A stretch of DNA of 64,000 nt. It comes from Kiritimatiellia bacterium (lineage in GTDB: Bacteria; Verrucomicrobiota; Kiritimatiellia; UBA8416; JAWODU01). The notes below the pieces were generated by a model. That model made no database searches and was not told where the DNA came from. It saw only the letters and a program-made list of their open reading frames with translations. Below, piece after piece: positions 7,896 to 64,000 of the stretch. The DNA lies in assembly GCA_046483125.1 (NCBI GenBank), contig JAWODU010000019.1, forward strand, positions 1,911 to 65,910, written 5' to 3'. Positions within the stretch are counted from its first letter, which is position 1. Every line of letters starts with the position of its first letter. The position numbers were made by a program, and so were the translations under genes.

Positions 7896-7924
7896 TCTAC
7901 TGTTACCCCTGCACTTACCCCGTC

Positions 7925-8006
7925 GTAGCTCTCTGGGCTCTTTGTGTACCCTTTCCCCCGCGTCATGCACTAAAAATCCTGTTGATCCCGCTGATCCTGC
8001 CTGAAA
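7925..8006. repeat. Partial copy of the GC-rich intergenic repeat family plus three 9-bp tandem repeats (ATCCTGTTGATCCCGCTGATCCTGCCTGAAA at 7976-8006)
   Basis: ctctgggctctttgtgtaccctttcccccgcgtc matches the element at 13921-13960. The tandem TGATCCTGT-like units are shared with 15651-15676 and 54031-54052. Confidence 0.6.
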
Positions 8007-44293: not shown

Positions 44294-44302
44294 GATATAC
44301 TC

Positions 44303-45778: not shown

Positions 45779-45866
45779 GACTTCCCTTCTGTTTTCTTTT
45801 TTCGGAATAGGTCCCACGGTTGCCACAGCAGTTGCCATGCGCCCCGGCCGCGGAGACACGATCGCC

Positions 45867-47874: not shown

Positions 47875-48036
47875 ATGAAAAAATACGTATGCGATGTCTG
47901 CGGTTATATCTACGATCCGGAAAAAGGCGATCCCGAAAACGGCATACAGCCCGGCACCGCTTTTGAGGAAGTGCCCGGCGACTGGGTATGCCCGGAATGC
48001 GGTGTGGGAAAGGAAGATTTCTCGCCCGCGGAATAA
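47875..48036 (+). CDS. Rubredoxin
   Basis: 53 aa: [53 protein letters not shown]. Two CxxCG knuckles and a GGAAGAGGAATAAC RBS. Too short to appear in the ORF track. Confidence 0.85.
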
Positions 48037-48061
48037 GTTCCCCCGGCGGCAAACCGTTTTC

Positions 48062-50080: not shown

Positions 50081-50998
50081 CTACGCGTCGGGGAGGAAGC
50101 GCTTGAGCACCTGGAGGTCCTCTTCCTTCCTGTAGCTGAACGCCCACACGATGAGCTGGTTATTCTGCTTCTCGACCCTGCAGTGCACCTTCAGTTTGAA
50201 ACACCACCGGCTGATCTCGTCGCGGTGCGCTATCACATGCGGGGCCCTTCTCCGCCACAGTATCTCGCCGTTCTTCCCGGGCCTGAACACTATGCCGGGG
50301 AACCCGCGGAAGGTGTTGAGGTAGCCTGTTACCCACTCTTCCATTGATTTGTCCCCTTTAAGGAACCGGTCCGCGCAGGAGAAATGCCAGAGGTGGAACC
50401 GGCGCATCTTCCAGCGGAAAATCATGAGTTTCGAACCGATGTCGAACTTGGTGTTTTCGAGAAGAAAGTCATGGGGCACCTCAAAAGAAATGTCGTAAAG
50501 CTGCCACGGCACCAGCCCCGCCTCATTGTGCTTTATGAAGTCCGAAGAAAGCACCTTCATTATCTTAACGGGGCTTTCCCTGTCGCCAGGCATGAAATGC
50601 ACAAAGAAACAGCCCACCAGTGTTGATCGCGGGCAGAGATAAAAAGCAGTCACCAGGCTGTGTTCCACGGCGCTGAGCTCTTTTTTGTTACTTCGGGTGG
50701 GAAGGGTTTCGCGCATAATGTACTGCGTGGCGTGCCAGTCCGGAGGAAGTCCGGATATGCGTTTCGTGCGGCTGGCGCGCATCGTGAGCTTGCGCGTGGA
50801 TTTTTCGTAACGATCCAGAATCTGTTTGGGCGTGATTTTCCTGCCGGGCCTTATCCATTCCGCCTCCATGCGAACCGCGTACTCGTCTTCCAGCTCCAGG
50901 CGCGTAACTCCTTTTTTAAGGAACCTGTAGAGCGCGACTTCCCAGTTCTCCGGCACCAGAAAAGACACTCTGTCCCAGGAAATCCGGCGGGTATTCAT
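50081..50998 (-). CDS. Hypothetical soluble protein, last gene of the novel membrane-protein operon
   Basis: 305 aa with no TM helix and no recognisable family. Lies 15 nt downstream of the 985-aa membrane-protein gene. Confidence 0.5.
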   Translation of the reverse strand: MNTRRISWDRVSFLVPENWEVALYRFLKKGVTRLELEDEYAVRMEAEWIRPGRKITPKQILDRYEKSTRKLTMRASRTKRISGLPPDWHATQYIMRETLPTRSNKKELSAVEHSLVTAFYLCPRSTLVGCFFVHFMPGDRESPVKIMKVLSSDFIKHNEAGLVPWQLYDISFEVPHDFLLENTKFDIGSKLMIFRWKMRRFHLWHFSCADRFLKGDKSMEEWVTGYLNTFRGFPGIVFRPGKNGEILWRRRAPHVIAHRDEISRWCFKLKVHCRVEKQNNQLIVWAFSYRKEEDLQVLKRFLPDA

Positions 50999-51013: not shown

Positions 51014-53971
51014 TCAGAACCTGTTGAGGGTCACGCCGAACAGGCACATGAAAAGTTCACCCAGTATCAATCCGATAAACATGGCGCGAAACTGGGCGTA
51101 GGTCCGGTTGTCGCCGTACTTGCTGACCATCGTCTTGAACAGCCAGCCCAGCAGAATGGAAAACCAGTACTGCCACATCAGCGGGTTGACCCACATTATC
51201 AGGCCGATAGGGTGCGGAAGCCAGAAAACGCGCTGGCGCAAGAATATCAGCGCCCCCATCACGATAACGCCGGTAAGAAGCCAGTACTTGCCGCCGGCCA
51301 CGTCCGTGGGCTCACTCTGGGCCATGTTTTTGATCTCGCTGAATATGTCCGTAAGGGCGGTGCTGTAGAACCACCCATGCATTCCGTCGGCCCCGTTTTT
51401 GTATCCCAGAATAATGTGAGTGGCAATGGCAACGACGGTGGCCGCCAGAATGCCGAATGCCACCGCGGTGTGGAACCTGAGGCGTCCCATTTTCACGTTG
51501 TCCCTCACCTTGAGCGCGTTGGCCATGGCCGGGGCTATGAAAGCCTTTATGTCCCAGAAGAAAATATACAGGTAGCACACCAGCGGAGCCAGAAGCGGAG
51601 CGGCGGTCCAGGCCTTGTTCATGCCGACAACGTGCCTGATAAGGTGAAACGGTCCGAAGAAACACTGGAATCCCAGCAGGCCCCCCTCCGTCACCGCCCT
51701 GACCAGCCCGATCGTGATAACCAGCACTACCAGGTAAACGAAAATGGAAAAGTAGATGTTGGCGCCCAGCCCCCAGGTCAGCACTCCTACCAGCCCCGCG
51801 GAACAGAAAACAAAGAGAAAGGACGAAATCCTGAGTTCCGTGCGCTCCGGCTTCTCCAGTTCGGAGACGGCCCCGGGCCTGAACGCGCAGAAAAGGTACT
51901 GGCGGCATTTCCACAATATCACCGCGGCGAACGCGGTGAGGGCGCCTCCGCCTATGGCGGTACGGAAATTCAGGAGCGAAGTCATGCCCTTGGGAAAGGA
52001 ATTCAGGTTTTCCCCGTAGCCCATCCACACCAGCACGAGCGTCAGGACCATGAAAACAAGATGAAAGAACCAGAGGGAAAAGGATATCTTTGCCGGAATC
52101 AGGAAGGTGAGACCTACCAGCGTAAAAATTATCTGATGGTGGGCGTTAGGTAAGAGCCCCGCAAACGGGCTGTTCTGAATGTACGGCGTCCAGTCATACC
52201 TGAGAGCTATATCACCCGCTCCGGGAATAATCTGCTTTGTGGCCAGCAGGTTCCACCCCATAACCCCTATGGATATCGCCGCACCCGTCCAGAACATTCC
52301 GTTTCTGTAAAGCGCCGGTACCCGTCCGCCGTTCTCGTCGTAGGCGCCGCTGAGATAAGTGGGCAGTTCCGCCAGAGGATAGATCAATTTCTCGTTATAG
52401 GCCCACTGGCGGAATATCAGGACGTTAAACGTCATGAGCACCGTATAGGTAAGGAGAATCACCACCGCCCACTTCGCGAGAGGGCCGACCCACTTTTTCC
52501 ACGGCACGTTACCGGCCGCGAAAGTGCGCAGGTCGCCGTCGAAAGTCCTGAACGCGGCCATTTCCGATTCGATCTTTTCGACAAGAGCGGGGCAACCCCC
52601 GGGCACCGCCGTTTCGGACTCGGCCGAAAGTTCCTCAAGGTTTTCCATGGTCTCGGCAACGACCCCGGCGGTCGCCAGGGACGGTTTCACTTTGCGGTCC
52701 AGTCTGGAGTTAAGCGATTCAAGATTTTTCTTCTTCTTGTCTACCCACTTCTGTACTTTCTTTATTCTCCTGGTAAGCTCTTCGGCAGTTTCGTCCATTG
52801 CGTACCGTCTCTGCTCCCTGAGCAGTCTCAAGTGCTTTTCTTCGTCCCCTATCTCCTCGCGCAGGTTGTTTATTTTCGCTTCCAGGTCCGCCTGGCGCTC
52901 TTCAAGTTCGGGAAGACCTGCCAATGGTTCAAGCATTCCGGCGGCTTCGGCAATCAATGCCGCCGCCTCTTTGCCCGTCCGGGGCCCTGAACTGTCTTCA
53001 AGCATGCTGCGGGCCTTTTCCAGCAACTCGAGCGAGTCGGTGCCGCGGCTGAAACGGCGTACGCGGTACATGTACGAGTGAAGTCCCTCTCCGGGATCGT
53101 ATATGAACCCGGGCACAGCCCGCAGTTCGCCCGGAAGGCCCCTGCGGAATTGCTCCACGGTTTCAAAAGTGCCGGCCTTTGCCTCGGCCAGTTCCCCGGC
53201 GCGTTCGTCCTTTGTCTCCTGAAGTAACCGGATTTTTTCCGGAAAAGTATCCAGGACTTTCCCGCGGTTGTACTCGCCTTCGTATTCTTTCCAGGCTTCG
53301 CGCGCCCTCTCCAGCGCCTGCCTGATTACCAAAACCTGGTGTCTCAGCGGCTCCGCCCGAAGCGTTCTTTCTTTCTCGTCGGGAATCTTCTCGAGTTCGT
53401 GAAGTTTCGCGGTGACTTCTTCGAGATTTTCCGCCGCCGCCTGCACGTTCGCGGCGGCGCGGTATACCTTCTTTGCCCTGTCCCACTTGAGTTCAGCGTC
53501 CCTTGCCTCGATGGCGGCCTCGCGGATCCCGTCCTCGGCCACGAAGAAGTCGTCGTTGACGTAAGGTTCCACGTAAAGGTCCCAGCGGGACTGCATATTG
53601 TTCCAGTCCGGGTTGAATAGGCCCGAGGTAAGCGGCACGAGCTGTGAAGCCAGCCCGAAAGTGGAAACCCCGCCCGAAACAGCCCCCATAACAAAAACTA
53701 TGAGGAGTTCGGTTGGTGTGAACCTGCGTATGAAGCGGACAAATTTCAGCAGTGGGTTAATCAGCACTACTCCAACGGCAAGCAATATGTAAGGCAGGAC
53801 CGCAATCTGAGTAGAGGTGATGATGTGGCCCGGCACGTTCTCCTGATACACGGTGTACCAGGCAAAAAGACCCGCGAAGATCATGCCCAGCAGAAAGGAC
53901 CGCAGTGTTATGCGGTTCCTCTTCGGCTCCTCGCCCCATTTCCCGGATTTATCTTTCACACCATTACTCAT
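51014..53971 (-). CDS. Large polytopic membrane protein (985 aa) with a roughly 350-aa coiled-coil insertion, paralogue of 54113-56122
   Basis: More than 12 predicted TM helices. The E/K/R-rich heptad-like insert lies between TM helices. The C-terminus VSKYGDNRTYAQFRAMFIGLILGELFMCLFG is homologous to the C-terminus of the upstream paralogue. Confidence 0.6.
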   Translation of the reverse strand: MSNGVKDKSGKWGEEPKRNRITLRSFLLGMIFAGLFAWYTVYQENVPGHIITSTQIAVLPYILLAVGVVLINPLLKFVRFIRRFTPTELLIVFVMGAVSGGVSTFGLASQLVPLTSGLFNPDWNNMQSRWDLYVEPYVNDDFFVAEDGIREAAIEARDAELKWDRAKKVYRAAANVQAAAENLEEVTAKLHELEKIPDEKERTLRAEPLRHQVLVIRQALERAREAWKEYEGEYNRGKVLDTFPEKIRLLQETKDERAGELAEAKAGTFETVEQFRRGLPGELRAVPGFIYDPGEGLHSYMYRVRRFSRGTDSLELLEKARSMLEDSSGPRTGKEAAALIAEAAGMLEPLAGLPELEERQADLEAKINNLREEIGDEEKHLRLLREQRRYAMDETAEELTRRIKKVQKWVDKKKKNLESLNSRLDRKVKPSLATAGVVAETMENLEELSAESETAVPGGCPALVEKIESEMAAFRTFDGDLRTFAAGNVPWKKWVGPLAKWAVVILLTYTVLMTFNVLIFRQWAYNEKLIYPLAELPTYLSGAYDENGGRVPALYRNGMFWTGAAISIGVMGWNLLATKQIIPGAGDIALRYDWTPYIQNSPFAGLLPNAHHQIIFTLVGLTFLIPAKISFSLWFFHLVFMVLTLVLVWMGYGENLNSFPKGMTSLLNFRTAIGGGALTAFAAVILWKCRQYLFCAFRPGAVSELEKPERTELRISSFLFVFCSAGLVGVLTWGLGANIYFSIFVYLVVLVITIGLVRAVTEGGLLGFQCFFGPFHLIRHVVGMNKAWTAAPLLAPLVCYLYIFFWDIKAFIAPAMANALKVRDNVKMGRLRFHTAVAFGILAATVVAIATHIILGYKNGADGMHGWFYSTALTDIFSEIKNMAQSEPTDVAGGKYWLLTGVIVMGALIFLRQRVFWLPHPIGLIMWVNPLMWQYWFSILLGWLFKTMVSKYGDNRTYAQFRAMFIGLILGELFMCLFGVTLNRF

Positions 53972-54112: not shown

Positions 54113-56122
54113 CTACCACGGCGTCGGACTCAACATCCTGGATATCACGTTAAAAGACAACGCTATCATGGACGTCAGTCCCAACCCGCATCCAAACCCC
54201 GCCATGATCGCCGTCATGTACTTGAGCCACATGTCCTTGTACTTGCGCTTGAAATGAAAACGCGCCACGGCCGCGCCCAGCATCGTGCAGAAAACCGCAC
54301 CCGGGTTGCTCTGCGCCAGCCCCCATACCGCCCCGAATATAAGCATTATGGGCATTCCCACGGCCGAAAGGATCGCAAAAAGCGACGAACCCGATATGAA
54401 ACCCCATAGCGCGTAGTCCAGGTTCATGGCCTCCAGGAACTGCGATCCTCCCTCCTGCGTGGCGGTAATCATAACCGCCCAGTTTCTCAGCTTAAGCGGC
54501 CACATCTTCTGCGTGTACGGATACGCCCCGGAAGGCACCTCCGCCATCCGCCAGAGAATCTCGGAGGTCAGGAAAGAGGCTATAAGTATAATGGGAACCG
54601 TAAGAATAAGTGTCTTGACCTGGCTCTTGATCTTGGTCCCGGTCAGTTCCAGAACACGAAAACCCACCGTTTCAGAGCCGAGGTTCTGTATGGGCATGGG
54701 CACGAACCATATGTCCGTCCCCTTGTATCCGGTGAGTATAATGGTCAACTCCTTCAGGTACGGTATGTTTACCGCCCGCCCGCATATGCCTTCCAGCTTG
54801 GCGGTGGCATACGAGATAAGAGGCGTGTACAGAAGGGCGTAGAACGTCATGATCTTCCACGGATAGCTGTTGCCTATCAGGAAGACGCCCAGCAACACCC
54901 AGGAAAAGGTACTGAACAGGTATATGAACAGGGCAACGAAAATTGAAAAATCACCCCTCGCGGCGTTGCCCATCACAAGCGTTCGCCAGGTTTCCCTGGC
55001 GCGCCGGCCGAAGCTCTTGGTGTGAGTCAGTTCCCTCGACCGGGGCCTCACGGCGTTTTTCACCGTTGTGGTCAGAAACACCACGAGCTGGCTGAATGTA
55101 ACCGCAAGGGTCAACCCGATACCGAAAGCGAGGTAAAAATCAATGTGGTTGGAAAACTGCGCGTTGACGAAACCCATCTCCGGACGCCAGGTCGTCAGTA
55201 TTCCGGCCTCGTAAAGCAGGGGATTCGCCACCCAGGTCATTACCAGCCCCACGAACGCCCCCACCACGCTCCAGAACGGCACTATCATGCCTACCATGAA
55301 AGCGGCAAAATCGAGTTTCAGGTTAAAGGGAACCGCGGGAAGCACGCGCCCGATCTGCTGTGTGTAATCTATGAAAATCATCGGGATGAGTTCTATGCGC
55401 TTGGGAAGCACCGCCTGGGTTATCATCGGAACGCAGATGTAAAGCAGGCCCCATATCATTCCCAGTACGCCCCCTATGGAGAAACACCGCCAGCGCCACG
55501 TCGTCTCTTCGCCCCTGTCGGTGGAAAGGGCCACTATTCCCGCGGCCCCCACGGGCGCGAACGGGAAAGGCAGTCTTTCCACGTCGTTTACCATCCGGTA
55601 CAGGACGTACCCGAGACCGTAGTTGTCTATCCGGGTTATGAAAATGCGGAACATGGTGATGCCGATAACCGGAAGCCAGGCCAGGCTGAAAAGCGTCCGT
55701 CCGGCGCTTTGTATATCGGCGGCACGCGGGAAAGCCCACGTCGGCAGATCAACCAGGCCCAGCCCCTGAATGTATTCGGACTGCGCGACGTACTGCTTGA
55801 ACAGGAAACCGGCGAAGGGATCGGCCAGCACCGCCCCGGCCATGAAATGAAGCGTATAGAGTTCCTGGCTCTTAAGCGTGGTGAACGAACGCTTGGCAAT
55901 CTCGGCGAAGAGAATCACAAGCACCCATTTCATGGCGTTTCCGATCTGGGCGTCGTTGCCTATCACGAGCACGAGGTAATCGGTGGCCGGGTTGACTATG
56001 AACCCGAGCAGGATGGCGCCCACTACCGTCTTCCAGCTGAAACCGTCCCGGAACTCCGTGATGTCCGGGGGTTTCATAATGTCCCGGTACTCGTTGAGTT
56101 CCTTGTCGTCAACCCATGACAT
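54113..56122 (-). CDS. Large polytopic membrane protein (669 aa), paralogue of 51014-53971
   Basis: About 14 predicted TM helices. N- and C-terminal blocks align with the 985-aa protein (FMAGAVLADPFAGFL versus MGAVSGGVSTFGL; KRKYKDMWLKYMTAIMAGFGCGLG versus VSKYGDNRTYAQFRAMFIGLILGE). Confidence 0.6.
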   Translation of the reverse strand: MSWVDDKELNEYRDIMKPPDITEFRDGFSWKTVVGAILLGFIVNPATDYLVLVIGNDAQIGNAMKWVLVILFAEIAKRSFTTLKSQELYTLHFMAGAVLADPFAGFLFKQYVAQSEYIQGLGLVDLPTWAFPRAADIQSAGRTLFSLAWLPVIGITMFRIFITRIDNYGLGYVLYRMVNDVERLPFPFAPVGAAGIVALSTDRGEETTWRWRCFSIGGVLGMIWGLLYICVPMITQAVLPKRIELIPMIFIDYTQQIGRVLPAVPFNLKLDFAAFMVGMIVPFWSVVGAFVGLVMTWVANPLLYEAGILTTWRPEMGFVNAQFSNHIDFYLAFGIGLTLAVTFSQLVVFLTTTVKNAVRPRSRELTHTKSFGRRARETWRTLVMGNAARGDFSIFVALFIYLFSTFSWVLLGVFLIGNSYPWKIMTFYALLYTPLISYATAKLEGICGRAVNIPYLKELTIILTGYKGTDIWFVPMPIQNLGSETVGFRVLELTGTKIKSQVKTLILTVPIILIASFLTSEILWRMAEVPSGAYPYTQKMWPLKLRNWAVMITATQEGGSQFLEAMNLDYALWGFISGSSLFAILSAVGMPIMLIFGAVWGLAQSNPGAVFCTMLGAAVARFHFKRKYKDMWLKYMTAIMAGFGCGLGLTSMIALSFNVISRMLSPTPW

Positions 56123-56126
56123 GGTC

Positions 56127-59100
56127 TTATTCCTCTTTTCCGGAGAAAAGCTTTTCGCTTTCCTTAACGTACCAGCTGTGCTGTGTGGGGTCTATATTCC
56201 GCCACCGCATCAGGGCTTTTCTCATCCTCTGCAGGAACGGTCTGTTCGTGGTGGCCCAGTTGGTGTCCTGGCCGGAAACACGGTAAATGTCCATATACAG
56301 CCTGTAGCTTTCCACCGTTTCGTCGTAGCGGGCGTTGAATATGACCTTCTGGGTCACGCCAAGGTCAAAAGGCGCCAGCGCTACCGAGTATTCCAGGGTG
56401 TAGGCAGGACGTCCTGAATCATCCTTACTTTTATGTATTCTTTTACATGAAGCTATAAGATCGCCTATGGACTGCTCGGTAAAGTCGGAAAAATACTCGT
56501 AAAGGTAATACACGACGCCCGCGGCCAGCTCCAGCTGGTAAATAAAGGGAAACGCAACGTGCATTTTCTCTCCGTCGTTGTCGGGGAGCGACCACTTCCG
56601 GCGTCCCGAAGGCACCGCCGTGCGCGTCGCGACGTAAGCGGGGTACACCGTCGAAAGCAGAACCAGTCCCACGGTAAACAGAATGGCCCACACCACGATA
56701 AGCGAGGAGAAGTTTATGTTTATTCCCTGAATAAGACCCGCGGACTTCACCGCTATCGCCCCGATCTGGCCTATAAGGTACCCGCCTATGGCGCCGATGA
56801 AACTGTACACAAGGGCCTCGGCCAGGAAAAACGTGAAAATGTGCAGGGGGTTCAGGCCTATGGCGTTGTAAACGGCTATCTCCGAACGCCGCTCATACAC
56901 GGTCCCCAGCATCGTGTTGAAAATAATCAGCCCCGCTATCAGAAGGGGTATTACAAGTCTTGATACCCCGCCTATGGTGGTCCTGTAACTGCTCCCCACG
57001 TAGTAAACCCCCTGGTCCGTGTCCTGCTCGGCGTCTTCCCCGAGCCTGAACGGTTCCCGGCTCCCCAAGAAGAACTTCGCCCCGGTTATGCCCAGCAGAA
57101 AGTCCGCGGCCTCCCACAGCGCGGTGTCGCTACGTTCCTCTTTTCTTGTCCGGAGCCTTATGGAAACCGTGTAGGGGTCCGCGTCCATGTCTTCGGCAAG
57201 TTCCGCGGGCAGGAGTACCAGCGAAGCCATATCTATTGTGGACATCCCAACGTAGTCGGTATCGGATTCTTCAACCCCCTGGGATTTCTGCTGTGCCTCG
57301 GCTGCCTTTTCCTGAAACGGAACCAGGGGAAGCTTCGGATCCAGGTCCCGCAGAGCGCGGTACCTGCTGTCGTCAAGGATACCCGCCACCTTCAGGTCCC
57401 GGCCAAGGAACCGGACGTACGTTTCCCCGGCGTCATCCGGATGGAGCCCCAGCGCCTCGGCCATGGCCGCGGTTATTATGATTTCCTCCGCGCACGGCCC
57501 CGAAAAGAACTCACCGCCCAGAAGAGGAAACGGGCCCAGGAAATACCTGTCTTCCTGAGGCAGGCCCACTACCGCTTTCACGTCGACATTCTGCGCTTCT
57601 TCGCCCGCGAGATCGAGCCTCCAAGTAATGCGCGCATCCTTGGCGCCCCTCGGCGGCAGTTTGATCCTGCGGACAAGTACCTGGGCTTTCCCGGTAAAGA
57701 GCGTGTTAAAAACTTCCGCGGTGGCCTCGTCCATGGATTTACCGCCGGGAGCGCGGTAAAAGAGTCCCGTATAGGGGCTGTTTTCGGACTTCGATATGAG
57801 GGTCGGCTTCGCCTTCCTGGATACGCTGGAAAATGCCAGCATGGTGAATACCACCAGCACGATGGTTCCCGTGGTCAGCGAGGTGCGCACCCTGCGGCGC
57901 TTCATGTTGTTTACGCCGATAATCATCGCCGTCTGTCCCACGGTTCCGTAAGCCACGTCGAATTCCATACTGCCGGAGGTCTTGAACAGAAGTTCCATTT
58001 CGGTCTGGAACCGCTTCTTCAGAACCCAGGCTATAAACAATCCCATGGCTCCCAGAACGAAGGCTATGAATATGGCCTCTGCGTTCATTGCTATGGCAAA
58101 CGCCGGGTGGATAAAGCGGAACCCGACGTATGTGACCAGAAACAGGAGTGTAAATGCCCCCAGTTCGTGCTGAAGCTTGGTGAAATTGAAAATCAGCTTC
58201 TGAAGAAAATAACAGAACGGCACCATCATCGCCATGTACAGCATGATCGCCTTGAGCATGTCCGCGTTCATGCCCCTTATCTGGGAGTACGCCTTCACTT
58301 CCGCGCCCAGCGCCCCGTAAAGCGCGAGAAGGTATCCGGTGTGGTCCCGCTGGGCTTTTTCGGCTTCCATTCGATTGAGGGCGGATTTTCCCTTTTCAAG
58401 AAAAGTATCCAGGAGTTCGTTGGCGACGCCCTTCATTTCGTTCTTGCGGTAACGGTTGAGTTTGTCCATGTCCCGCGCCGCGACGGCGAAGAAATCCGCT
58501 CCAAGCTCTTCGGCGTTTTTATATCCGTAACCCCCCGGCTCCTTTTCCTTGGGATTGAGCGCGCACCTTTTATTTCCGGTAAGCAGGAGCAGGCGGTCTT
58601 CATGGAATCCCTCCTGCTTTTTCTTCCACAGGTAAACCGCCACCGGCCCCGTGGAAACATGGCTTTTCGCGGGCGAAAGTGAAATCGCCCCGTGCACCCC
58701 GTATTCCTCCGGCTCCGACTGCATCTGGGCGCTCTTGGGCCACCATTGATCAACTTTAACCTGGGAGCTTCCCGCCAGGGTCGGATCCTTGCGGGTATAA
58801 ACCGGGAACTCCCTGCATGGGAACATGGGCAGGGTGGTACTCGGCCCGGGCACTATGTTGCTGGTAATTTCTTCGGATTCCTGGACCCGTCCCTTGTCGA
58901 TGGTGTGGGTGACTTTTCTGAAACCTTCGCCCATGCGGTATGCCGTGGAACAAAGCTGGCCGTCATTGAGGCCGTAAATGTACGTGGAGCCGCTTATGTC
59001 GGTAATAGCCGGGTAGCAGTTGACGACGTCACCGTCAACAAGCGGAGGAACAAGCGTGTTCCCGCCGGGATAAAGGGTCACCATACAGCCGGGCACCGGA

Positions 59101-61511
59101 AGATCCGGACTGCCCTGCGAAGAGAACTCGTCGATGGCGTAGGTGCGGACCAGCGTTGACCACAGCCAGTACTGGTGCTTTCGTTCGACCTTTCCGATGG
59201 TGTCCGGAGAAGCCAGTACGGGCTCGTCTATCAGCCGGGGAAGGTAGCGGCTCAGCCATTCCATGTTCCGTTCCGCCGTGTCTGAATCCAGTCTTTCGGC
59301 CGTGTCCGCCGGGCTGAATGCGGCCCCCTCGTTCACAAACACTCCTTTAAGGGCCATCGCCGGTGTCCGGCCCGAATGGAACACCGCCGAGGGTGATTCC
59401 CATCCCGGGAAAAAACGTTTCTGGCTCTTGCCCGCGGCTCCGCCCAGGGTTTCCAGGAACGGACTTTTCTCTGTTCCCGTTTCTTCGTCTATCTCGCCGG
59501 CGACACGCAGGCACAGGTTCCCCAGCCCCCTTTCCCAGTCGGTGGTAACGTTGGGGTCCAGGGAACAGAAACCCGCCTGCTCCGCGCGCCAGTTCATGTC
59601 CAGGTTTATAACCAGGGCCACCTGCCGCATCTGGAGGGCTTCGCGCAGATTGTCATTCGATGTATCAAGCGACAGCACCTCTTCTTTTTTCCGCTCGAAC
59701 TCCCCGAACCTCTCGACCAGCGTGTCCCGGTAATCCTTCAGAATGTTCCTGTGGATATCGCTGAGCGCGATTTCACGGTAGCGCACCTTGCTTCGTCCGA
59801 TGCCCACGTCAATTTTGTTGAAAAGCCTCAATACTTTTGCCAGATCATCTTTTCTTTTTATGGCTTTTTTCCGCAGATCTTCCAGGCGCTCATCATCCAT
59901 ATCTTCCACGCGGGCTAAATCAAGAAGGCGCAGTTTCGACATGTTGAGTTCACGCTTGGCCTTTGTCTGGAGCTTGTCCTTGACCGGAAGCCTTTTCCCC
60001 GTGCTGGCGTCCATCTCGCTGCGCCATTCCTCCAGGAGTTTTTCGTCGTCGAACACCGTCTTCGCCCGCCTGAGAAGGATGAATATTTTCTCGGCGGGCC
60101 ATTGCTTCATTTCCTCGACGTGACGCCGGTCCTTTTTGAGCATCCGGATCGCCTCGCTGTCCGTGGAAAACATGGCCAGAAATCCGCCGGCTTCTTTGGA
60201 CAGTTCCTCGACTACACGGTCTATTGCGGCATAAACGTCTTCGGCGTCGAACTCGGAAAGATCAAGCTTCCAGTCTATTTCCGGCACCGGCTGAAGTTCG
60301 ATCTCCGAGGTGTCTTTTTCCTGATCCTCCAGCCGCTCAAGTTCGTTTCTTCTTTCCTCGAGCAGTTTCTCGTGCTCGGCTTCGCGTTTTTCCTGCTGGA
60401 TCTCGTCAAGTCTGCCCATGATTTCCACGGCGGCGTAAAGGTCCGAAGCCGGTATGTCCACCGGTTCGAGCTTGAGCAGGCTGTACTTATCGTGAAAAAG
60501 CCTGGCTATCCGCATTTCCGTGCCGATGGAGTCTCTGAATTTGGCGATATCTTTCATACCGGCCAGAAGGTGCCATGCCAGGACGCGCTCTCCCCGGAAG
60601 TTCTGAGTATGGGCGTTCACGGCGCAGAGCAGGACCGTCCGGGCCGGCGGCTCCCGGCGAAGTTTTTCGAGAATCTCCAGCAGAAGGCAGAGGTTTCCCG
60701 CCCCCTGGGCGCCCCAGGACCTGTCGGGCACCGCGGAGGCGGCGTCCAGCGGGGCGGTAATCACCACCACTTCCCGTCCGAGGTCAGGGTCGTTTCCCGG
60801 TATCAATACCCAGGGGCTTTCGAGCACGCTGTTGGTCCAGATCGATGGAGAAGAATGGACCCGGCATTCGAGTTCGCCGCCGCCTTCCCCGCACAGTTCC
60901 CGGAGCACAAGCCCGTCCGAATGCGTAAGGAAAAACCGGGGAAATCCGACTTCGGTATTGTAAATCTTGGACAGGGAATCTTTGTACTGGTACCTGCCCT
61001 CGCCCAGCCCCATGAAGATAACACCCGCCGGATTAAACCTCAGAAGGTCCAGCCACGCGCCGCCGCAGTCGTAATCCATAAGGAAAAAAGCCCGGTCCAG
61101 TTCAATTCCGTTCACCGCCTTCAGGTCCCGGTACCCGCCCTTACGAAGGTCCACGAGACGGGTTGTTACGGTATCGCGAGGCAGGTTCCCGGGCCGCATG
61201 AGAGTGGGATGCATTACCGACAGGTTCACAGGGAGGGCGCCTTCGGCTTCAAGCCGCCCGCTCCCCGGCTCAAAGACCGGGGCTGTGAACCGGATTACCC
61301 CGTTGGTGAACCCGGAATCCGCGAAAACGCCCGCGACTTCCCGCTGAAGAGCGAGATTCCCCTTCATTCCCGGAGCGCGGGGCTGTGCGGAAATGCTCTC
61401 CATGTCGGCGGAGAACCCCGCAAAAGCCGCGGAGACGCCCTGCAGAAGTGCAATGGAACACAACCATGAAAAACAGCGGACCACCGCTGATCCTGCCCGG
61501 CCTGAATGCAC
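56127..61511 (-). CDS. Giant (1794 aa) MacB/FtsX-type permease fusion with a roughly 1000-aa N-terminal PA/M28-like ectodomain (catalytic residues not conserved) and a coiled-coil region
   Basis: N-terminal signal anchor. PA-like (GIELDRAFFLMDYDCGGAWLDLLRFNPAGVIFMG) and M28-like (VVVITAPLDAAS...GAQGAGN) segments lack the His/Asp/Glu zinc ligands. The C-terminal half holds TM clusters and the FtsX hallmark ERRSEIAVYNAIGL followed by three TM helices, with a MacB-like periplasmic domain between TM helices. Confidence 0.65.
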   Translation of the reverse strand: MHSGRAGSAVVRCFSWLCSIALLQGVSAAFAGFSADMESISAQPRAPGMKGNLALQREVAGVFADSGFTNGVIRFTAPVFEPGSGRLEAEGALPVNLSVMHPTLMRPGNLPRDTVTTRLVDLRKGGYRDLKAVNGIELDRAFFLMDYDCGGAWLDLLRFNPAGVIFMGLGEGRYQYKDSLSKIYNTEVGFPRFFLTHSDGLVLRELCGEGGGELECRVHSSPSIWTNSVLESPWVLIPGNDPDLGREVVVITAPLDAASAVPDRSWGAQGAGNLCLLLEILEKLRREPPARTVLLCAVNAHTQNFRGERVLAWHLLAGMKDIAKFRDSIGTEMRIARLFHDKYSLLKLEPVDIPASDLYAAVEIMGRLDEIQQEKREAEHEKLLEERRNELERLEDQEKDTSEIELQPVPEIDWKLDLSEFDAEDVYAAIDRVVEELSKEAGGFLAMFSTDSEAIRMLKKDRRHVEEMKQWPAEKIFILLRRAKTVFDDEKLLEEWRSEMDASTGKRLPVKDKLQTKAKRELNMSKLRLLDLARVEDMDDERLEDLRKKAIKRKDDLAKVLRLFNKIDVGIGRSKVRYREIALSDIHRNILKDYRDTLVERFGEFERKKEEVLSLDTSNDNLREALQMRQVALVINLDMNWRAEQAGFCSLDPNVTTDWERGLGNLCLRVAGEIDEETGTEKSPFLETLGGAAGKSQKRFFPGWESPSAVFHSGRTPAMALKGVFVNEGAAFSPADTAERLDSDTAERNMEWLSRYLPRLIDEPVLASPDTIGKVERKHQYWLWSTLVRTYAIDEFSSQGSPDLPVPGCMVTLYPGGNTLVPPLVDGDVVNCYPAITDISGSTYIYGLNDGQLCSTAYRMGEGFRKVTHTIDKGRVQESEEITSNIVPGPSTTLPMFPCREFPVYTRKDPTLAGSSQVKVDQWWPKSAQMQSEPEEYGVHGAISLSPAKSHVSTGPVAVYLWKKKQEGFHEDRLLLLTGNKRCALNPKEKEPGGYGYKNAEELGADFFAVAARDMDKLNRYRKNEMKGVANELLDTFLEKGKSALNRMEAEKAQRDHTGYLLALYGALGAEVKAYSQIRGMNADMLKAIMLYMAMMVPFCYFLQKLIFNFTKLQHELGAFTLLFLVTYVGFRFIHPAFAIAMNAEAIFIAFVLGAMGLFIAWVLKKRFQTEMELLFKTSGSMEFDVAYGTVGQTAMIIGVNNMKRRRVRTSLTTGTIVLVVFTMLAFSSVSRKAKPTLISKSENSPYTGLFYRAPGGKSMDEATAEVFNTLFTGKAQVLVRRIKLPPRGAKDARITWRLDLAGEEAQNVDVKAVVGLPQEDRYFLGPFPLLGGEFFSGPCAEEIIITAAMAEALGLHPDDAGETYVRFLGRDLKVAGILDDSRYRALRDLDPKLPLVPFQEKAAEAQQKSQGVEESDTDYVGMSTIDMASLVLLPAELAEDMDADPYTVSIRLRTRKEERSDTALWEAADFLLGITGAKFFLGSREPFRLGEDAEQDTDQGVYYVGSSYRTTIGGVSRLVIPLLIAGLIIFNTMLGTVYERRSEIAVYNAIGLNPLHIFTFFLAEALVYSFIGAIGGYLIGQIGAIAVKSAGLIQGININFSSLIVVWAILFTVGLVLLSTVYPAYVATRTAVPSGRRKWSLPDNDGEKMHVAFPFIYQLELAAGVVYYLYEYFSDFTEQSIGDLIASCKRIHKSKDDSGRPAYTLEYSVALAPFDLGVTQKVIFNARYDETVESYRLYMDIYRVSGQDTNWATTNRPFLQRMRKALMRWRNIDPTQHSWYVKESEKLFSGKEE

Positions 61512-61553
61512 TGTGCCCCCTATCCGATTTACGCCCGGCGGCGCGTCCCCTGC

Positions 61554-61943
61554 TTATCCGGCAGCCGTTTCTTCCCGTTTCAGCATGACGCTCACCAGAT
61601 TGCGTTTCATGAGTATTTTTATGAAGGCCACGACCCCGAGTTCCGATTCCCGGTAGCTCATGCCGAACTGCTTCTGAAAAGCGCGGATTATCTCAAGAAC
61701 GGTTCGTTCGTGATCTATGTTATCCACTACAAAACTACCGAATTCATCCAGCTCAAACCGCTTGTTTATGACCCGCGGCCGGAATCTTTCGAGAAAATGG
61801 TTCCGCCTGGTTTCCCTGATTTTAACACTGGACAAGCCTGAATCGGCCTTCTCGATTTTGACATTGTCCGAAATCACGGGCACCCCGGCCAGGGCGGCGC
61901 GGCGATCGATGCTGTTTCTGTGCCTTTTCCAGAATAAAGACAT
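61554..61943 (-). CDS. PqqD-family (RiPP recognition element-like) small protein, first gene of the minus-strand operon
   Basis: 129 aa. The C-terminal segment LDEFGSFVVDNIDHERTVLEIIRAFQKQFGMSYRESELGVVAFIKILMKRNLV fits the PqqD/RRE winged-helix pattern. Ends 42 nt upstream of the giant permease gene. Confidence 0.5.
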   Translation of the reverse strand: MSLFWKRHRNSIDRRAALAGVPVISDNVKIEKADSGLSSVKIRETRRNHFLERFRPRVINKRFELDEFGSFVVDNIDHERTVLEIIRAFQKQFGMSYRESELGVVAFIKILMKRNLVSVMLKREETAAG

Positions 61944-62083
61944 TCTTTGAGTTCCCCCGGCCGCGGCTCCGGCGGTTTTTTCTTGCCGCCCTGTTGCCGG
62001 GGCCCTATTAGAAACTTGCCCGGTTGAGTAATTCCATGATATATGAAGTTTTCCTGGGTCAGGTCAAGACGGATTCGAGACTA

Positions 62084-62842
62084 ATGGAAACAGCGGCAAC
62101 AAAAGACATAGTAATTCGCGCCCTTGGCGTAAAGCGCTACTACGGTGAGGGGGAAAACCTCACCAAAGCCCTCGACGGCGTAAGTCTGAACATCTACAGG
62201 GGTGAATATCTTTCGATTATGGGGCCTTCGGGATCCGGTAAAAGCACGCTTTTCAACATGATCGGCGGCATAGATTCGCCCACCGAAGGCATGGTGTTCA
62301 TTGACGAAATCGACGTGGCACAGCTCGATTCCTTTGAACTTGCCTGGATGCGCTGTCACAAAATCGGCTACATATTCCAGACCTACAATATACTTCCGGT
62401 GCTGACAGCGCTGGAAAACGTTACTTTGCCCATGACGTTCGCGGGGCTTTCACCGGACGAAGCCAGGGAAAAAGGGCGTGAAATCCTGCGGATCGTCGGT
62501 CTCGGCGACAGGGTCTTTCACCGCCCCTTCGAGCTTTCGGGCGGTCAACAGCAGAGGGTAGCCGTGGCAAGGGCCATAGCCAACGATCCGGTCATCGTTC
62601 TTGCCGACGAACCGACCGCCAACCTGGACGTGGACACCGGCCAGGAAATCATTGATCTCCTGGCCAAACTCAAGGAAGAGCGGGGAATGACCGTGATTTC
62701 GGCGACTCACGACATGAAGATGCTCGATATCTCCGACCGGATACTCTGGATAAGAGACGGACGCGTCCAGAGGCTGGAGGACCGCAGGAATCTGGACATC
62801 AACGTGGGCGGCATCGGGGGCAGATCAAAGCAGGCAGTCTGA
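62084..62842 (+). CDS. ABC transporter ATP-binding protein (MacB/LolD-type)
   Basis: Walker A GPSGSGKST, signature LSGGQQQRV and Walker B LADEPT. Likely start at the ATG at 62084 (METAATKDIVIRALGV); the track ORF starts at 62024. Confidence 0.85.
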   Translation: METAATKDIVIRALGVKRYYGEGENLTKALDGVSLNIYRGEYLSIMGPSGSGKSTLFNMIGGIDSPTEGMVFIDEIDVAQLDSFELAWMRCHKIGYIFQTYNILPVLTALENVTLPMTFAGLSPDEAREKGREILRIVGLGDRVFHRPFELSGGQQQRVAVARAIANDPVIVLADEPTANLDVDTGQEIIDLLAKLKEERGMTVISATHDMKMLDISDRILWIRDGRVQRLEDRRNLDINVGGIGGRSKQAV

Positions 62843-62855
62843 AAGGAAAACCATC

Positions 62856-63557
62856 TTGGCCGACACAGCAACAGCCAGTCGCGCCGCCGCTCCCGCCGGC
62901 GGCCTCAAGGGAACCATTCCCGAACAGTCCCCTCTGCCGTGGAACATGATCTGCCGGGTGGCGTCCGCCGGAATGAAGCGCCGCATGACGCGCTCCGTTA
63001 TGAGCATATCCATTGTCGTTCTGGCAATCGCCTTCGTGGCCTACATGCTGATTATAGACAACATTACCGTGTCCCTCGTAGCCGTGCGCGACAGTCGTCT
63101 TGCCGTACTGCTCCAGGAGAAAGGGGTCGAGGTATACGGCCGCACCGGAACGGATGAGATGACGGTTCTGCTGATAAGTCTGGCACTGCTTACCTGTACC
63201 GTGGGGATAGTAAACTCCATGCTGATGTCGGTAACCGAGCGGGTCCGTGAAATAGGAACGCTCAAATGCCTCGGCGCCAGGGACCTGTTCATCGTGAAAA
63301 CCTATTTTGTGGAAGCCACACTGCAGGGCATATTCGGCTCCATCTGCGGGATGGTTCTAGGGGTGCTGGTCGCGGTACTCGTCTCCATGACCGATTACCC
63401 CGGTTACGTTCTGCCCAACCTGCCGTACGGGACCATAGGGCGCTCGCTCCTGCTGGCCTTTCTCGCGGGTCTTGTTATATCGGTGATAGCGGCCATAGCC
63501 CCGGCCTATGCCGCCGCCCGCAAACAGCCCGTTGACGCGCTCAGGGTTGAAGAATGA
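62856..63557 (+). CDS. Minimal FtsX-family ABC permease (233 aa, 4 TM, no large periplasmic domain)
   Basis: TERVREIGTLKCLGA FtsX hallmark, with one TM helix before it and three after it. Confidence 0.7.
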   Translation: MADTATASRAAAPAGGLKGTIPEQSPLPWNMICRVASAGMKRRMTRSVMSISIVVLAIAFVAYMLIIDNITVSLVAVRDSRLAVLLQEKGVEVYGRTGTDEMTVLLISLALLTCTVGIVNSMLMSVTERVREIGTLKCLGARDLFIVKTYFVEATLQGIFGSICGMVLGVLVAVLVSMTDYPGYVLPNLPYGTIGRSLLLAFLAGLVISVIAAIAPAYAAARKQPVDALRVEE

Positions 63558-64000
63558 CAGACAACGCTCTCATATCGGTACGCGACGTCGCCAAGGTTTA
63601 CCGCATGGGCGACGAGGAAGTGCACGCCCTGCGGAACATTACCGCCGACATAGCCCGCGGCGAATACGTATCCATCATGGGGCCTTCCGGCTCGGGAAAA
63701 TCCACTCTCTTCAACATGATCGGCGGTCTGGACACTCCAAGCGGCGGTGAAGTTGTCGTGGACGGATGGAAACTGGCGGACCTCAACTCCGACCAGCTCG
63801 CGTGGTTCAGGAACCGCAACATCGGCTTCATTTTTCAGAACTTCAACCTGGTGCCCACAATGACCGCCGCCGAAAACGTGGCCATTGCCAGGATGTTTAC
63901 CGGTGTTTCCGCTCACGAGGCCAACGAAGCCGCCGGCCGGGTCCTGGAAAAAGTCGGGCTGGGGCACCGTCTCCATCACCTTCCCGGGGAAGTGTCCGGA
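63554..64000 (+). CDS. Second ABC transporter ATP-binding protein (MacB-type), 3' partial at window end
   Basis: Its ATG overlaps the permease stop (ATGA). Walker A GPSGSGKST. The frame is open to the end of the window. Confidence 0.85.
   Translation, partial: MTDNALISVRDVAKVYRMGDEEVHALRNITADIARGEYVSIMGPSGSGKSTLFNMIGGLDTPSGGEVVVDGWKLADLNSDQLAWFRNRNIGFIFQNFNLVPTMTAAENVAIARMFTGVSAHEANEAAGRVLEKVGLGHRLHHLPGEVSG

What the first reader, a model, noticed from the sequence alone, without database searches (positions are those of the whole stretch)
61554..61943. Stand-alone PqqD/RRE-like protein not accompanied by any RiPP enzyme
The C-terminal 55 residues match the PqqD winged-helix pattern (D-x-x-R-T-V-x-E-I ... 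Y/F ... E ... G-V ... F-I ... L). Such proteins bind leader peptides. Its position as leader gene of an operon dominated by export machinery is unusual. It is easily dismissed as intergenic DNA because a plus-strand shadow ORF overlaps it.
Basis: partly seen in the sequence, partly recalled or inferred. Interest (0 to 1): 0.65.

Follow-up and report, generated by a model that had tools for sequence, protein, structure and literature searches.

The report
RRE-fold subunit of an ABC machine
The small gene is real and encodes a peptide-binding "PqqD/RRE" fold, but it is a fixed accessory part of a large, conserved and so far undescribed membrane transport machine of Kiritimatiellia and related bacteria, not a stray piece of a peptide-antibiotic pathway.

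Summary
ORF 61554..61943 (-) is a real 129-aa gene, passes Pfam PqqD (PF05402) and folds like lasso-peptide RRE proteins. The overlapping plus-strand ORF is a shadow. NCBI already names the protein "PqqD family protein".

It is not stand-alone. It belongs to an eight-gene cassette: two ABC ATPases, a small FtsX permease, a giant 1,794-aa FtsX permease, an OPT-like protein, a DUF6785/DUF6784 protein, a 305-aa tandem PsbP/Mog1-fold protein (p305) and the RRE. Twenty-eight of 31 non-redundant cassettes clearly carry the RRE, despite gene-order shuffling.

No RiPP enzyme or conserved small peptide gene accompanies it. In five MAGs the RRE is fused in frame to the N-terminus of the giant permease, just before its first membrane helix. 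In one contig it is fused to p305. In distant relatives p305 and the RRE genes are adjacent.

Best reading: a basic, cytoplasmic, membrane-proximal adaptor subunit that, with p305, clamps a short peptide segment of a partner or client through the conserved beta3/alpha3 groove. The ligand is unknown.

This is a new variant of a known kind and moderately interesting.

The parts
61554..61943 (-). PqqD/RRE-fold protein, 129 aa, pI 10.3. This is the finding.
   Evidence: PF05402 above the gathering cut-off. 26 of 26 homologues hit PF05402. AF2 model plus Foldseek give lasso B1 RREs and PqqD as best matches. Coding-type substitution pattern in this frame.
61506..61841 (+). Antisense shadow ORF (111 aa), not a gene.
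   Evidence: Listed. The conservation and codon-position pattern belong to the minus frame.
56127..61511 (-). Giant FtsX-type permease, 1,794 aa. Layout: TM0 at 13-31, about 1,050 aa outside the membrane, three TM helices at 1085-1164, FtsX TM1 at 1212-1230, a periplasmic domain of about 280 aa, TM2-4 at 1513-1622, and a cytoplasmic C-terminal domain.
   Evidence: Pfam FtsX E=2e-13 at residues 1521-1631. Hydropathy. Orthologues are present in all cassettes. In L016, L017, L018, L020 and L022 the RRE domain is fused at its N-terminus.
54113..56122 (-). OPT-like polytopic membrane protein, 669 aa, with a conserved acidic N-terminal cytoplasmic tail.
   Evidence: Pfam OPT E=2.5e-4 over profile 129-619 of 623, below the cut-off. 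62-73% identity within the window's clade (A2 and L008-L023); more distant cassettes fall to 32-60%. Tail alignment.
51014..53971 (-). DUF6785 + DUF6784 polytopic membrane protein, 985 aa, with a large insert outside the membrane.
   Evidence: Pfam E=4e-70 and 2e-18. Hydropathy. Present in most of the cassettes.
50081..50998 (-). p305: soluble protein made of two tandem PsbP/Mog1-like alpha/beta domains. It is the likely direct partner of the RRE.
   Evidence: No Pfam or NCBIfam hit. 72 other homologous clusters besides its own; every source name given is 'hypothetical protein'. AF2 pLDDT 91.6. Foldseek hits PsbP, Mog1, BT_1490, Tsi3 and SciW. It is adjacent to the RRE gene in distant relatives and fused to the RRE in P0224.
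61944..62023 (.). 80-bp divergent intergenic region between the RRE operon and the ABC operon.
   Evidence: No sigma-70-like promoter match and no convincing palindrome.
62024..62842 (+). ABC ATPase 1 (MacB/LolD-type nucleotide-binding domain), 272 aa.
   Evidence: Pfam ABC_tran E=4e-32. NCBIfam LolD, MacB and DevA-type hits. It is the gene most often next to the RRE in other loci.
62856..63557 (+). Small FtsX permease, 233 aa, four TM helices, no large periplasmic domain.
   Evidence: Pfam FtsX E=2e-21. Hydropathy.
63554..64000 (+). ABC ATPase 2, N-terminal part. The gene runs off the end of the window, and its ATG overlaps the FtsX stop codon.
   Evidence: Translation. Orthologues at 55-70% identity in the cassettes.

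Best explanation
The ORF encodes a small, strongly basic, cytoplasmic protein with the PqqD/RRE fold. It is a dedicated accessory subunit of a conserved, undescribed envelope machine and not part of a RiPP biosynthetic pathway.

The machine is built around a heteromeric FtsX/MacB-type ABC transporter: a giant 1,794-aa permease, a 233-aa permease and two different ATPases. It also contains two large polytopic membrane proteins (OPT-like and DUF6785/6784) and a soluble tandem PsbP/Mog1-fold protein (p305).

Shown here:
- The fold.
- Membership of the cassette.
- The fusions.
- The absence of RiPP enzymes and of a conserved precursor gene.

Inferred:
- The RRE sits at the inner face of the membrane, next to the first membrane helix of the giant permease.
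- It works as a pair with p305.
- It uses the canonical beta3/alpha3 groove to clamp a short linear peptide segment by beta-strand addition.
- This couples a partner subunit or a client polypeptide to the ATPase-driven permease.

The identity of the bound segment is unresolved. Candidates are the conserved acidic N-terminal tail of the OPT-like protein, the beta-like C-terminal tails of the ATPases, or a client.
For: Fold and family:
- PF05402 above the cut-off for the window protein and for 26 of 26 homologues.
- AF2 plus Foldseek give leader-bound lasso RREs and PqqD as the best matches.

Cassette:
- The same eight families occur together in the window and in loci from Kiritimatiellia, Lentisphaeria/Victivallales, Verrucomicrobiota, Planctomycetota, FCPU426 and Armatimonadota.
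- Gene order is rearranged, yet the RRE is retained. Of 31 non-redundant cassettes, 28 have it clearly, 1 weakly and 2 not at all.

Fusions:
- RRE, about 10 aa, then a TM helix and the giant permease lie in one reading frame in L016, L017, L018, L020 and L022, and in representatives P0101 and P0102.
- A p305-like domain is fused to the RRE in P0224, whose gene lies between ATPase1 and the giant gene.

Pairing with p305:
- A p305-family gene lies immediately upstream of the RRE gene in all nine distant contexts sampled.
- Gene starts and stops overlap in several loci, which suggests translational coupling.

Binding surface:
- Invariant residues cluster on beta3 and the start of alpha1 (L65 D66 F68 G69 F71 V72) and along ten consecutive positions of alpha3 (R98-F107).
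- Alpha2 keeps only its buried positions.
- According to PMC7470986, beta3 and alpha3 are the elements that line the RRE peptide cleft.

No enzyme and no precursor:
- No further gene family is co-conserved.
- No small ORF is conserved.
- p305 has a binding or chaperone-type fold, and its Cys/His residues are not conserved in distant relatives.
Against:
- Two cassettes lack a local RRE gene (L012, L019), so it may be dispensable or encoded elsewhere.
- All PqqD::giant fusions belong to one clade, so they probably reflect one fusion event. The p305::RRE fusion rests on a single 2.6-kb contig.
- In Desulfobacterota the p305-RRE pair travels with a different ABC exporter plus a cNMP-binding protein. 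The pair is therefore not exclusive to the FtsX machine.
- The very basic pI (family median 10.1) is atypical for RREs as I recall them. It would also fit nucleic-acid binding.
- The function of the whole machine is unknown.
Confidence: 0.6

Rival explanations
1. It is a genuine RiPP recognition element. Its precursor peptide and modifying enzymes are encoded elsewhere in the genome, and the neighbouring ABC machinery only exports the product. A variant is that the RRE serves as a leader-peptide receptor feeding an unmodified ribosomal peptide to the transporter.
For: - The RRE fold and PF05402 membership are established.
- RiPP clusters commonly include ABC exporters, and PqqD-like genes near transporters are taken as RiPP indicators (PMC7470986, read).
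- OPT-family proteins are peptide transporters by family name.
- One relative, L001, has a Peptidase_C39 gene 7 kb away.
Against: - No RiPP enzyme family and no small ORF is co-conserved in about 31 cassettes.
- The flanks differ between loci, and the C39 gene is not conserved.
- The RRE is fused to a permease and to a non-enzyme fold, not to an enzyme.
- By established knowledge of the MacB family, FtsX/MacB-type transporters are not thought to take substrates from the cytoplasm, where the RRE sits.
- The NCBIfam lasso and PQQ models score far below their cut-offs.
Confidence: 0.15
2. It is a winged-helix DNA-binding regulator of the divergent ABC and permease operons, and the Pfam PqqD model picks it up only because the folds are related.
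For: - pI is 10.3, and 89% of the broad family are above 9.
- In the window it is the first gene beside an 80-bp divergent intergenic region.
- RRE-Finder reports helix-turn-helix regulators as the main structural look-alikes. It also reports that lasso-type discrete RREs without lasso enzymes might be DNA binders (PMC7470986).
Against: - No HTH family hit at E<=1.
- The best structural matches are RREs, not regulators.
- In many loci the gene is internal to the operon, after ATPase genes or after p305, with overlapping stop and start codons.
- It is fused about 10 residues from a membrane helix of a giant permease, and in one contig is fused to p305.
- The invariant alpha3 carries two acidic residues (E99, E101) and a hydrophobic run, unlike a recognition helix.
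- No palindrome worth noting lies in the intergenic region.
Confidence: 0.1
3. The minus-strand ORF is not a gene. Either the plus-strand ORF 61506..61841 is the real one or the stretch is non-coding.
For: The plus-strand ORF exists and overlaps. Local GC3 of the minus ORF (0.62) is somewhat lower than in neighbouring genes (0.66-0.74).
Against: - 25 homologous protein clusters besides the window's own, at 48-60% identity, in the minus frame.
- 830 representative relatives.
- A Pfam hit above the cut-off.
- A position 3 > 1 > 2 substitution pattern in the minus frame.
- Conserved synteny.
Confidence: 0.01

Closest known systems
Discrete RiPP recognition elements: lasso-peptide B1/E proteins (TbiB1, TfuB1) and PqqD of PQQ biosynthesis
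   Same: - The same fold: a beta-sheet plus three helices.
- They are the best PDB matches.
- The same Pfam family, PF05402.
- Small and separately encoded, with conserved beta3 and alpha3 elements.
- Like B1 and PqqD, it is paired with a specific partner protein and is sometimes fused to it.
   Different: - No precursor peptide, protease, cyclase or radical-SAM partner is present.
- The partners are a giant FtsX permease and a PsbP/Mog1-fold protein.
- It carries an extra conserved basic N-terminal segment and an insertion before beta3.
- pI is about 10.
- It scores far below the NCBIfam lasso (22 against 80 bits) and PQQ (21 against 46 bits) cut-offs.
Discrete 'lasso-model' RREs lacking lasso enzymes, flagged by RRE-Finder (PMC7470986)
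   Same: The paper describes many PqqD-like proteins that do not co-occur with lasso machinery. It leaves them as possible false positives, DNA binders or unknown RiPP classes. The present family would fall into that unexplained set.
   Different: Here a specific, conserved non-RiPP context and domain fusions are documented. Whether this family was among the RRE-Finder hits was not checked.
MacB/LolCDE/FtsEX-type (type VII) ABC transporters
   Same: The cassette has FtsX-domain permeases with the four-helix layout and a large periplasmic domain between TM1 and TM2 in the giant subunit. It also has LolD/MacB-like ATPases.
   Different: - It is heteromeric, with one giant permease (an extra 1,050-aa outside region plus three extra TM helices) and one minimal permease.
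- It has two distinct ATPases.
- It has added OPT-like and DUF6785 membrane proteins.
- It has RRE and PsbP/Mog1-fold accessory proteins.
- None of these accessories is known to me for MacB, LolCDE or FtsEX.
Eag/DUF1795 chaperones of type VI secretion (SciW) and other PsbP/Mog1-fold binding proteins
   Same: The p305 partner is built from two domains of this fold. Eag chaperones hold hydrophobic N-terminal helices of client proteins, according to the PDB entry title for 6xrr.
   Different: The similarity is only at fold level (TM 0.4-0.56 on the target, about 10% identity). There is no type VI secretion context. The function of p305 is untested.

Membership tests
Pfam PqqD family (PF05402) | Whole-protein score at or above the curated gathering cut-off (23.4 bits). 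| tested here: met
   25.7 bits, E=1.4e-5, residues 62-117. All 26 homologues match, best E 7.6e-10.
RRE (RiPP recognition element) as a fold | Winged helix-turn-helix: a three-stranded antiparallel sheet plus three helices, with a cleft between beta3 and alpha3. | tested here: met
   The AF2 model has strands 21-24, 28-32, 38-45 and 58-64, then helices 67-74, 82-93 and 97-113. Foldseek top hits are TbiB1 with leader, 6jx3_B and PqqD 5sxy. Cleft geometry itself could not be inspected because no coordinates were available.
RRE as a function | Encoded with a RiPP precursor peptide and the modifying enzyme(s) it recruits. | tested here: not met
   No co-conserved extra gene family. No conserved small ORF. 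Window neighbours are transport, glycosyltransferase or housekeeping genes.
RRE as a function | Binds a leader peptide in the beta3/alpha3 cleft. | not testable with these tools
   Only indirect evidence: beta3 and alpha3 are the most conserved surface elements.
PqqD sensu stricto (PQQ biosynthesis, TIGR03859) | Equivalog score of at least 46 bits, and a pqqA/B/C/E neighbourhood. | tested here: not met
   20.6 bits. No pqq genes in the window or in related loci.
Lasso peptide B1 chaperone (NF033536) | Model score of at least 80 bits, and a neighbouring leader peptidase (B2) and lasso cyclase (C). | tested here: not met
   22.4 bits. No such neighbours.
Winged-helix transcription factors | Match to an HTH DNA-binding family, and a specific operator. 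| tested here: not met
   No HTH family at E<=1. No notable palindrome in the 80-bp intergenic region. DNA binding itself is not testable here.
Type VII (MacB/FtsX) ABC transporter, for the cassette | An FtsX four-helix permease with a periplasmic domain between TM1 and TM2, plus a cytoplasmic ABC ATPase. | tested here: met
   FtsX domains in the giant and small permeases and ABC_tran in two ATPases. Hydropathy layout. The small permease lacks the large periplasmic domain.
OPT oligopeptide transporter family (PF03169), for the 669-aa protein | Score at or above the gathering cut-off (25.8 bits). | tested here: inconclusive
   20.3 bits, E=2.5e-4, but aligned over profile 129-619 of 623. Precomputed hits in relatives are 'faint' or 'weak'.

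The most novel reading that the evidence does not exclude
The RRE fold has been recruited outside RiPP biosynthesis as the peptide-recognition module of an undescribed envelope-spanning machine: a giant FtsX permease, OPT-like and DUF6785 proteins, and a PsbP/Mog1-fold co-chaperone. It reads a leader-like linear motif on a client or partner polypeptide and hands it to, or gates, an ATP-driven permease. That would be leader-peptide-style recognition used for transport or assembly instead of for chemical modification. With 830 representative relatives at E<=1e-3, 119 of them at E<=1e-10, this would be a widespread second career for the fold.
Probability: 0.25. Interest if true: 0.8.

Novelty: new variant of a known kind. 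Interest (0 to 1): 0.55.

Why it matters
RRE and PqqD-like genes are used as beacons for mining peptide natural-product clusters. A large family sits in a transporter cassette with no enzyme and no precursor: 830 clusters at 50% identity with E<=1e-3, 119 of them at E<=1e-10. Part of the 'orphan RRE' signal is therefore not RiPP biosynthesis, and genome miners should filter it out.

It also gives a defined, testable entry point into an uncharacterised and very large membrane machine conserved in Kiritimatiellia, Lentisphaeria, Verrucomicrobiota, Planctomycetota and Armatimonadota. Two small soluble proteins, the RRE and p305, can be expressed and used as baits to find what the machine handles.

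Tried and rejected
- Small precursor gene. All start-to-stop ORFs of 20-120 aa in or within 1.5 kb of 31 cassettes and the window were clustered. Only low-complexity chance groups appeared. The window gaps (80 bp and 42 bp) hold no credible ORF.
- Extra co-conserved genes or enzymes. Clustering of all other ORFs of at least 100 aa found only the distant p305 homologues.
- p305 as a hidden enzyme. Its fold is of the PsbP/Mog1/Eag type, and the Cys/His residues conserved among close relatives are lost in distant ones. I rejected this as unlikely.
- ATPase C-terminal tails as the RRE ligand. Both ATPases carry a conserved 'L-D-I-x-V-G-x-I' tail, including in L019, which lacks the RRE. The result is uninformative.
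- OPT-like N-terminal tail as the ligand. It is strongly conserved and acidic, but it is also present in L012 and L019, which lack a local RRE. It remains a candidate only.
- Giant permease N-terminal region. No Pfam or PDB sequence hit. My impression of a PA/M28-like domain is from reading the sequence and is unverified.
- OPT-like against DUF6785. No pairwise similarity.
- Promoter, terminator and palindrome scans of the divergent region found nothing useful.
- PADLOC. No defence-system hit for the RRE, p305 or the OPT-like protein.
- Literature. No paper mentions DUF6785, PqqD together with FtsX, or PqqD together with Kiritimatiellae. A search for CARF with LolE was irrelevant.
- No multimer modelling was possible.

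Full report
**1. The observation**

The minus-strand ORF 61554..61943 (ATG start, 129 aa) is present as described, with the motif D77-HERTVLEI.

- Pfam PqqD (PF05402) matches residues 62-117 at E=1.4e-5 and 25.7 bits, above the curated cut-off of 23.4. No other family matches at E<=1.
- The NCBIfam models for the lasso B1 chaperone (22.4 against 80 bits) and for the PQQ PqqD equivalog (20.6 against 46 bits) are touched only weakly.
- The protein is in public databases as 'MAG: PqqD family protein [Kiritimatiellia bacterium]' on a 68.5-kb contig. So the domain call is not new.
- It has 25 homologous clusters at 48-60% identity. All 26 aligned sequences hit PF05402 and nothing else.
- Against four orthologues, substitutions per codon position in the minus frame are about 0.42, 0.25 and 0.66 (positions 1, 2, 3). 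This is the signature of a coding frame. The overlapping plus-strand ORF 61506..61841 is therefore a shadow.

**2. Fold**

An AlphaFold2 model built on the 26-sequence alignment has pLDDT 79.5 and pTM 0.71. It shows a short N-terminal strand and helix, then strands 21-24, 28-32, 38-45 and 58-64, then helices 67-74, 82-93 and 97-113, and a C-terminal strand 117-122.

- Foldseek against the PDB ranks the lasso-peptide RRE TbiB1 bound to its leader peptides (5v1u, 5v1v) and 6jx3_B near the top, followed by the NMR structure of PqqD (5sxy). Target TM-scores are 0.69-0.81.
- A sequence profile of the family finds a solved lasso 'PqqD family chaperone' (9x90_B) at E=0.0023.
- The fold is therefore that of an RRE.
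- Within the close family the invariant residues are R55, P56, L65, D66, F68, G69, F71, V72 (beta3 and the start of alpha1), V82, F89, and ten consecutive positions of alpha3 (R98-F107), plus L111, R114 and V119.
- Across 135 representatives that are at most 50% identical to one another, the same elements stand out.
- Beta3 and alpha3 are the two elements that line the peptide cleft of RREs (PMC7470986, read).
- Alpha2 keeps only positions that look buried. So the alpha3/beta3 surface appears to be under selection as a binding surface. This is an inference, because I could not inspect coordinates.
- The family is very basic. The window protein has pI 10.3, the family median is 10.1, and 89% are above 9.

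**3. Surroundings in the window**

Downstream on the minus strand lie four genes:

- A 1,794-aa protein with a C-terminal FtsX domain (56127..61511).
- A 669-aa polytopic protein with a sub-threshold but nearly full-length OPT match (54113..56122).
- A 985-aa DUF6785+DUF6784 protein (51014..53971).
- A 305-aa protein without any family hit (50081..50998).

Divergently on the plus strand lie a LolD/MacB-type ATPase (62024..62842), a 233-aa FtsX permease (62856..63557) and a second ATPase that starts at 63554 and runs off the window.

Hydropathy gives the following layout for the giant protein:

| Segment | Residues |
|---|---|
| TM0 | 13-31 |
| Outside the membrane | about 1,050 residues |
| Three TM helices | 1085-1164 |
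| Short cytoplasmic loop | 1165-1211 |
| FtsX TM1 | 1212-1230 |
| Periplasmic domain | about 280 residues |
| TM2-4 | 1513-1622 |
| Cytoplasmic tail | about 170 residues |

Nothing in the rest of the window resembles a RiPP enzyme. The other genes are glycosyltransferases, MTTB-family methyltransferases, PurL, a Na/H exchanger and similar.

**4. Related loci**

Contigs encoding three homologues already showed the same arrangement. I then scanned one genome per species with an alignment of the OPT-like protein, which returned 44 loci. I mapped all eight window proteins and an HMM of the RRE family onto them.

- The eight families travel together in MAGs of Kiritimatiellia, Lentisphaeria/Victivallales, Verrucomicrobiota, Planctomycetota, FCPU426 and Armatimonadota. 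At least five different gene orders occur. One search adds another, which ends ...ATPase-ATPase-p300-RRE.
- Of 31 non-redundant cassettes with the relevant DNA present, 28 clearly carry the RRE gene or domain, one weakly (L039), and two not locally (L012, L019).
- The flanks outside the cassette differ from locus to locus.
- Clustering of every other ORF of at least 100 aa found no further co-conserved family, except distant versions of the 305-aa protein.
- Clustering of all 20-120-aa ORFs in and around the cassettes found no conserved small gene.
- So there is neither a RiPP enzyme nor a detectable precursor gene.

**5. Fusions and pairing**

- In L016, L017, L018, L020 and L022, from five different MAGs of one clade, the RRE domain, a linker of about 10 residues, a membrane helix and the rest of the giant permease form a single reading frame.
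- The exhaustive representative search also returned a 1,923-aa fused protein (P0102) and a truncated one (P0101).
- The RRE has no signal sequence and precedes TM0. This places it in the cytoplasm against the membrane, at the N-terminus of the giant permease.
- A second architecture, P0224 (439 aa), joins a p305-like domain to the RRE. Residues 3-272 match the p305 profile (hhalign probability 92%, E=5.6e-7), and residues 314-430 are the RRE. Its gene lies between ATPase1 and the giant gene. This rests on one short contig.
- In every distant relative whose context I could read, the gene immediately upstream of the RRE gene belongs to the p305 family, with hmmsearch E from 5e-15 to 8e-8. These are L035/36, L041, L042, L045, L056, L057, L058 (partial) and L059.
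- Several junctions overlap by 1-4 nt or more.
- In Desulfobacterota the p305-RRE pair goes with a type-I ABC exporter and a cNMP-binding protein (L056). In L035-37 that module happens to lie beside the FtsX cassette. So the conserved core is the p305-RRE pair attached to an ABC system.

**6. The partner p305**

- It has 72 other homologous clusters; every name that a source gives is 'hypothetical protein'.
- The AF2 model is confident (pLDDT 91.6). It consists of two tandem alpha/beta domains.
- Their best PDB matches are PsbP, Mog1, BT_1490, the immunity protein Tsi3 and the type VI chaperone SciW.
- The Cys and His residues conserved among close relatives are not kept in distant family members.
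- I therefore see no catalytic site and regard p305 as a binding or scaffold protein.

**7. Most likely mechanism**

Shown:

- An RRE-fold protein.
- Fixed membership of an ABC-centred cassette.
- Fusion to the cytoplasmic N-terminus of the giant permease, and fusion to p305.
- No RiPP enzymes and no conserved precursor.

Inferred:

- The RRE and p305 form a cytoplasmic adaptor pair at the membrane face of a heteromeric FtsX/MacB-type transporter (giant plus small permease, two ATPases).
- The conserved beta3/alpha3 groove binds a short linear segment by beta-strand addition.
- This couples a partner subunit or a client to the ATP-driven permease.
- The basic surface would suit an acidic ligand or the anionic membrane face.

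One candidate ligand is the acidic, strikingly conserved N-terminal tail of the OPT-like protein (DDKELxEYRxIMxPP...DGFxWK). Others are the beta-like C-terminal tails of both ATPases. Neither is supported beyond plausibility. What the machine transports or assembles is unknown.

**8. Rivals**

- A RiPP pathway encoded in trans cannot be excluded from fragmentary MAG contigs. The fusions, the lack of any co-conserved enzyme or peptide, and the cytoplasmic position relative to a MacB-type permease all argue against it.
- A DNA-binding regulator is suggested by the basic pI and by the divergent position in this window. Against it stand the fusions, the internal operon positions with overlapping codons, the absence of HTH hits, the acidic invariant residues on alpha3, and the RRE-type structural matches.
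- The shadow-ORF alternative is refuted.

**9. Comparison with what is known, and novelty**

- The protein works like, and is a Pfam-level member of, the PqqD/RRE family.
- It fails the tested criteria for PQQ PqqD, for lasso B1 and for a RiPP-context RRE.
- RRE-Finder (PMC7470986) had already noted many discrete lasso-type RREs without lasso enzymes and left them unexplained. I found no paper describing this cassette, DUF6785, or a PqqD-FtsX link.
- I rate it a new variant of a known kind: a known fold and family in a new, conserved, non-RiPP role whose biochemical function remains to be shown.
- Interest is moderate (0.55).
- The domain call is already in public annotation. The cassette, the fusions and the p305 pairing are not in the searched literature and are testable.

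Noticed in passing
window 56127-61511 (residues 1501-1709 of the giant protein): The FtsX module and the start of the C-terminal cytoplasmic domain match PADLOC profiles named 'CARF_m8--CARF_LolE_TM' (E=7.5e-42) and 'CARF_m8--CARF_Beta-galactosidase_LolE_TM' (E=3.4e-24, a 1,791-position profile). These matches are far stronger than the Pfam FtsX match. I did not examine whether the C-terminal domain is CARF-like.
   Followed up: partly
window 54113-56122, N-terminal 30 residues; alignment over about 30 loci: The cytoplasmic N-terminal tail of the OPT-like protein (DDKELxEYRxIMxPPxxxxFxDGFxWK) is nearly identical from Kiritimatiellia to Desulfobacterales, although overall identity is only about 43%. 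It is acidic and diverges in Armatimonadota.
   Followed up: partly
window 62024-62842 and orthologues; ATPase2 orthologues in L001-L044: Both ATPases carry a conserved C-terminal extension beyond the usual end of LolD/MacB nucleotide-binding domains. The motifs are about 'R-x-D-L-D-I-x-V-G-G-I' in ATPase1 and 'L-x-I-x-V-G-x-I-D-G-E-T-V' in ATPase2.
   Followed up: partly
L012 and L023 (contigs of one Lentisphaerales MAG, CAYLNH01): This genome has two paralogous giant/OPT-like/DUF6785 cassettes. One has an RRE gene upstream. The other has no RRE or ABC genes upstream and instead follows a large ORF that looks like a glycoside hydrolase, identified only by reading the sequence.
   Followed up: partly
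L056 1-4859; L035 12028-17797: In Desulfobacterota the p305-like and RRE pair, plus a lipoprotein-like gene of about 200 aa, is linked to a type-I ABC exporter (ABC_membrane + ABC_tran) and a cNMP-binding protein. L035 also has STAS and HATPase-like genes, judged by reading the sequence.
   Followed up: partly
L001 17952-20399 (1,342-aa product): The DUF6785 protein of this Kiritimatiellae relative carries Laminin_G_3 and DUF2341 domains inserted between two DUF6785 halves. The extracytoplasmic insert of this subunit is therefore variable.
   Followed up: no
L001 1255-3069: A 604-aa protein with a Peptidase_C39 (bacteriocin-processing type) domain lies 7 kb from the RRE gene in this one relative, separated from it by kinase and FHA/cyclase genes. 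It is not conserved in other loci.
   Followed up: partly
window 43004-47333: Two adjacent MTTB-family (trimethylamine methyltransferase-like) paralogues (488 and 518 aa) lie next to a class I methyltransferase-like gene and two GT4 glycosyltransferases, one of 838 aa.
   Followed up: no
window 48820-49947 and 47894-48814: An aldo/keto reductase is fused to a 4Fe-4S dicluster domain (375 aa) directly downstream of p305 on the same strand. A DUF2400 gene lies on the opposite strand. An AKR-like gene also lies after the cassette in L031, but with weak similarity and on the opposite strand.
   Followed up: no
window 1932-7970 and 30535-33792: Two further very large ORFs (2,012 aa and 1,085 aa) have almost no family hits. 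The only one is a sub-threshold 3-keto-disaccharide hydrolase match in the first.
   Followed up: no
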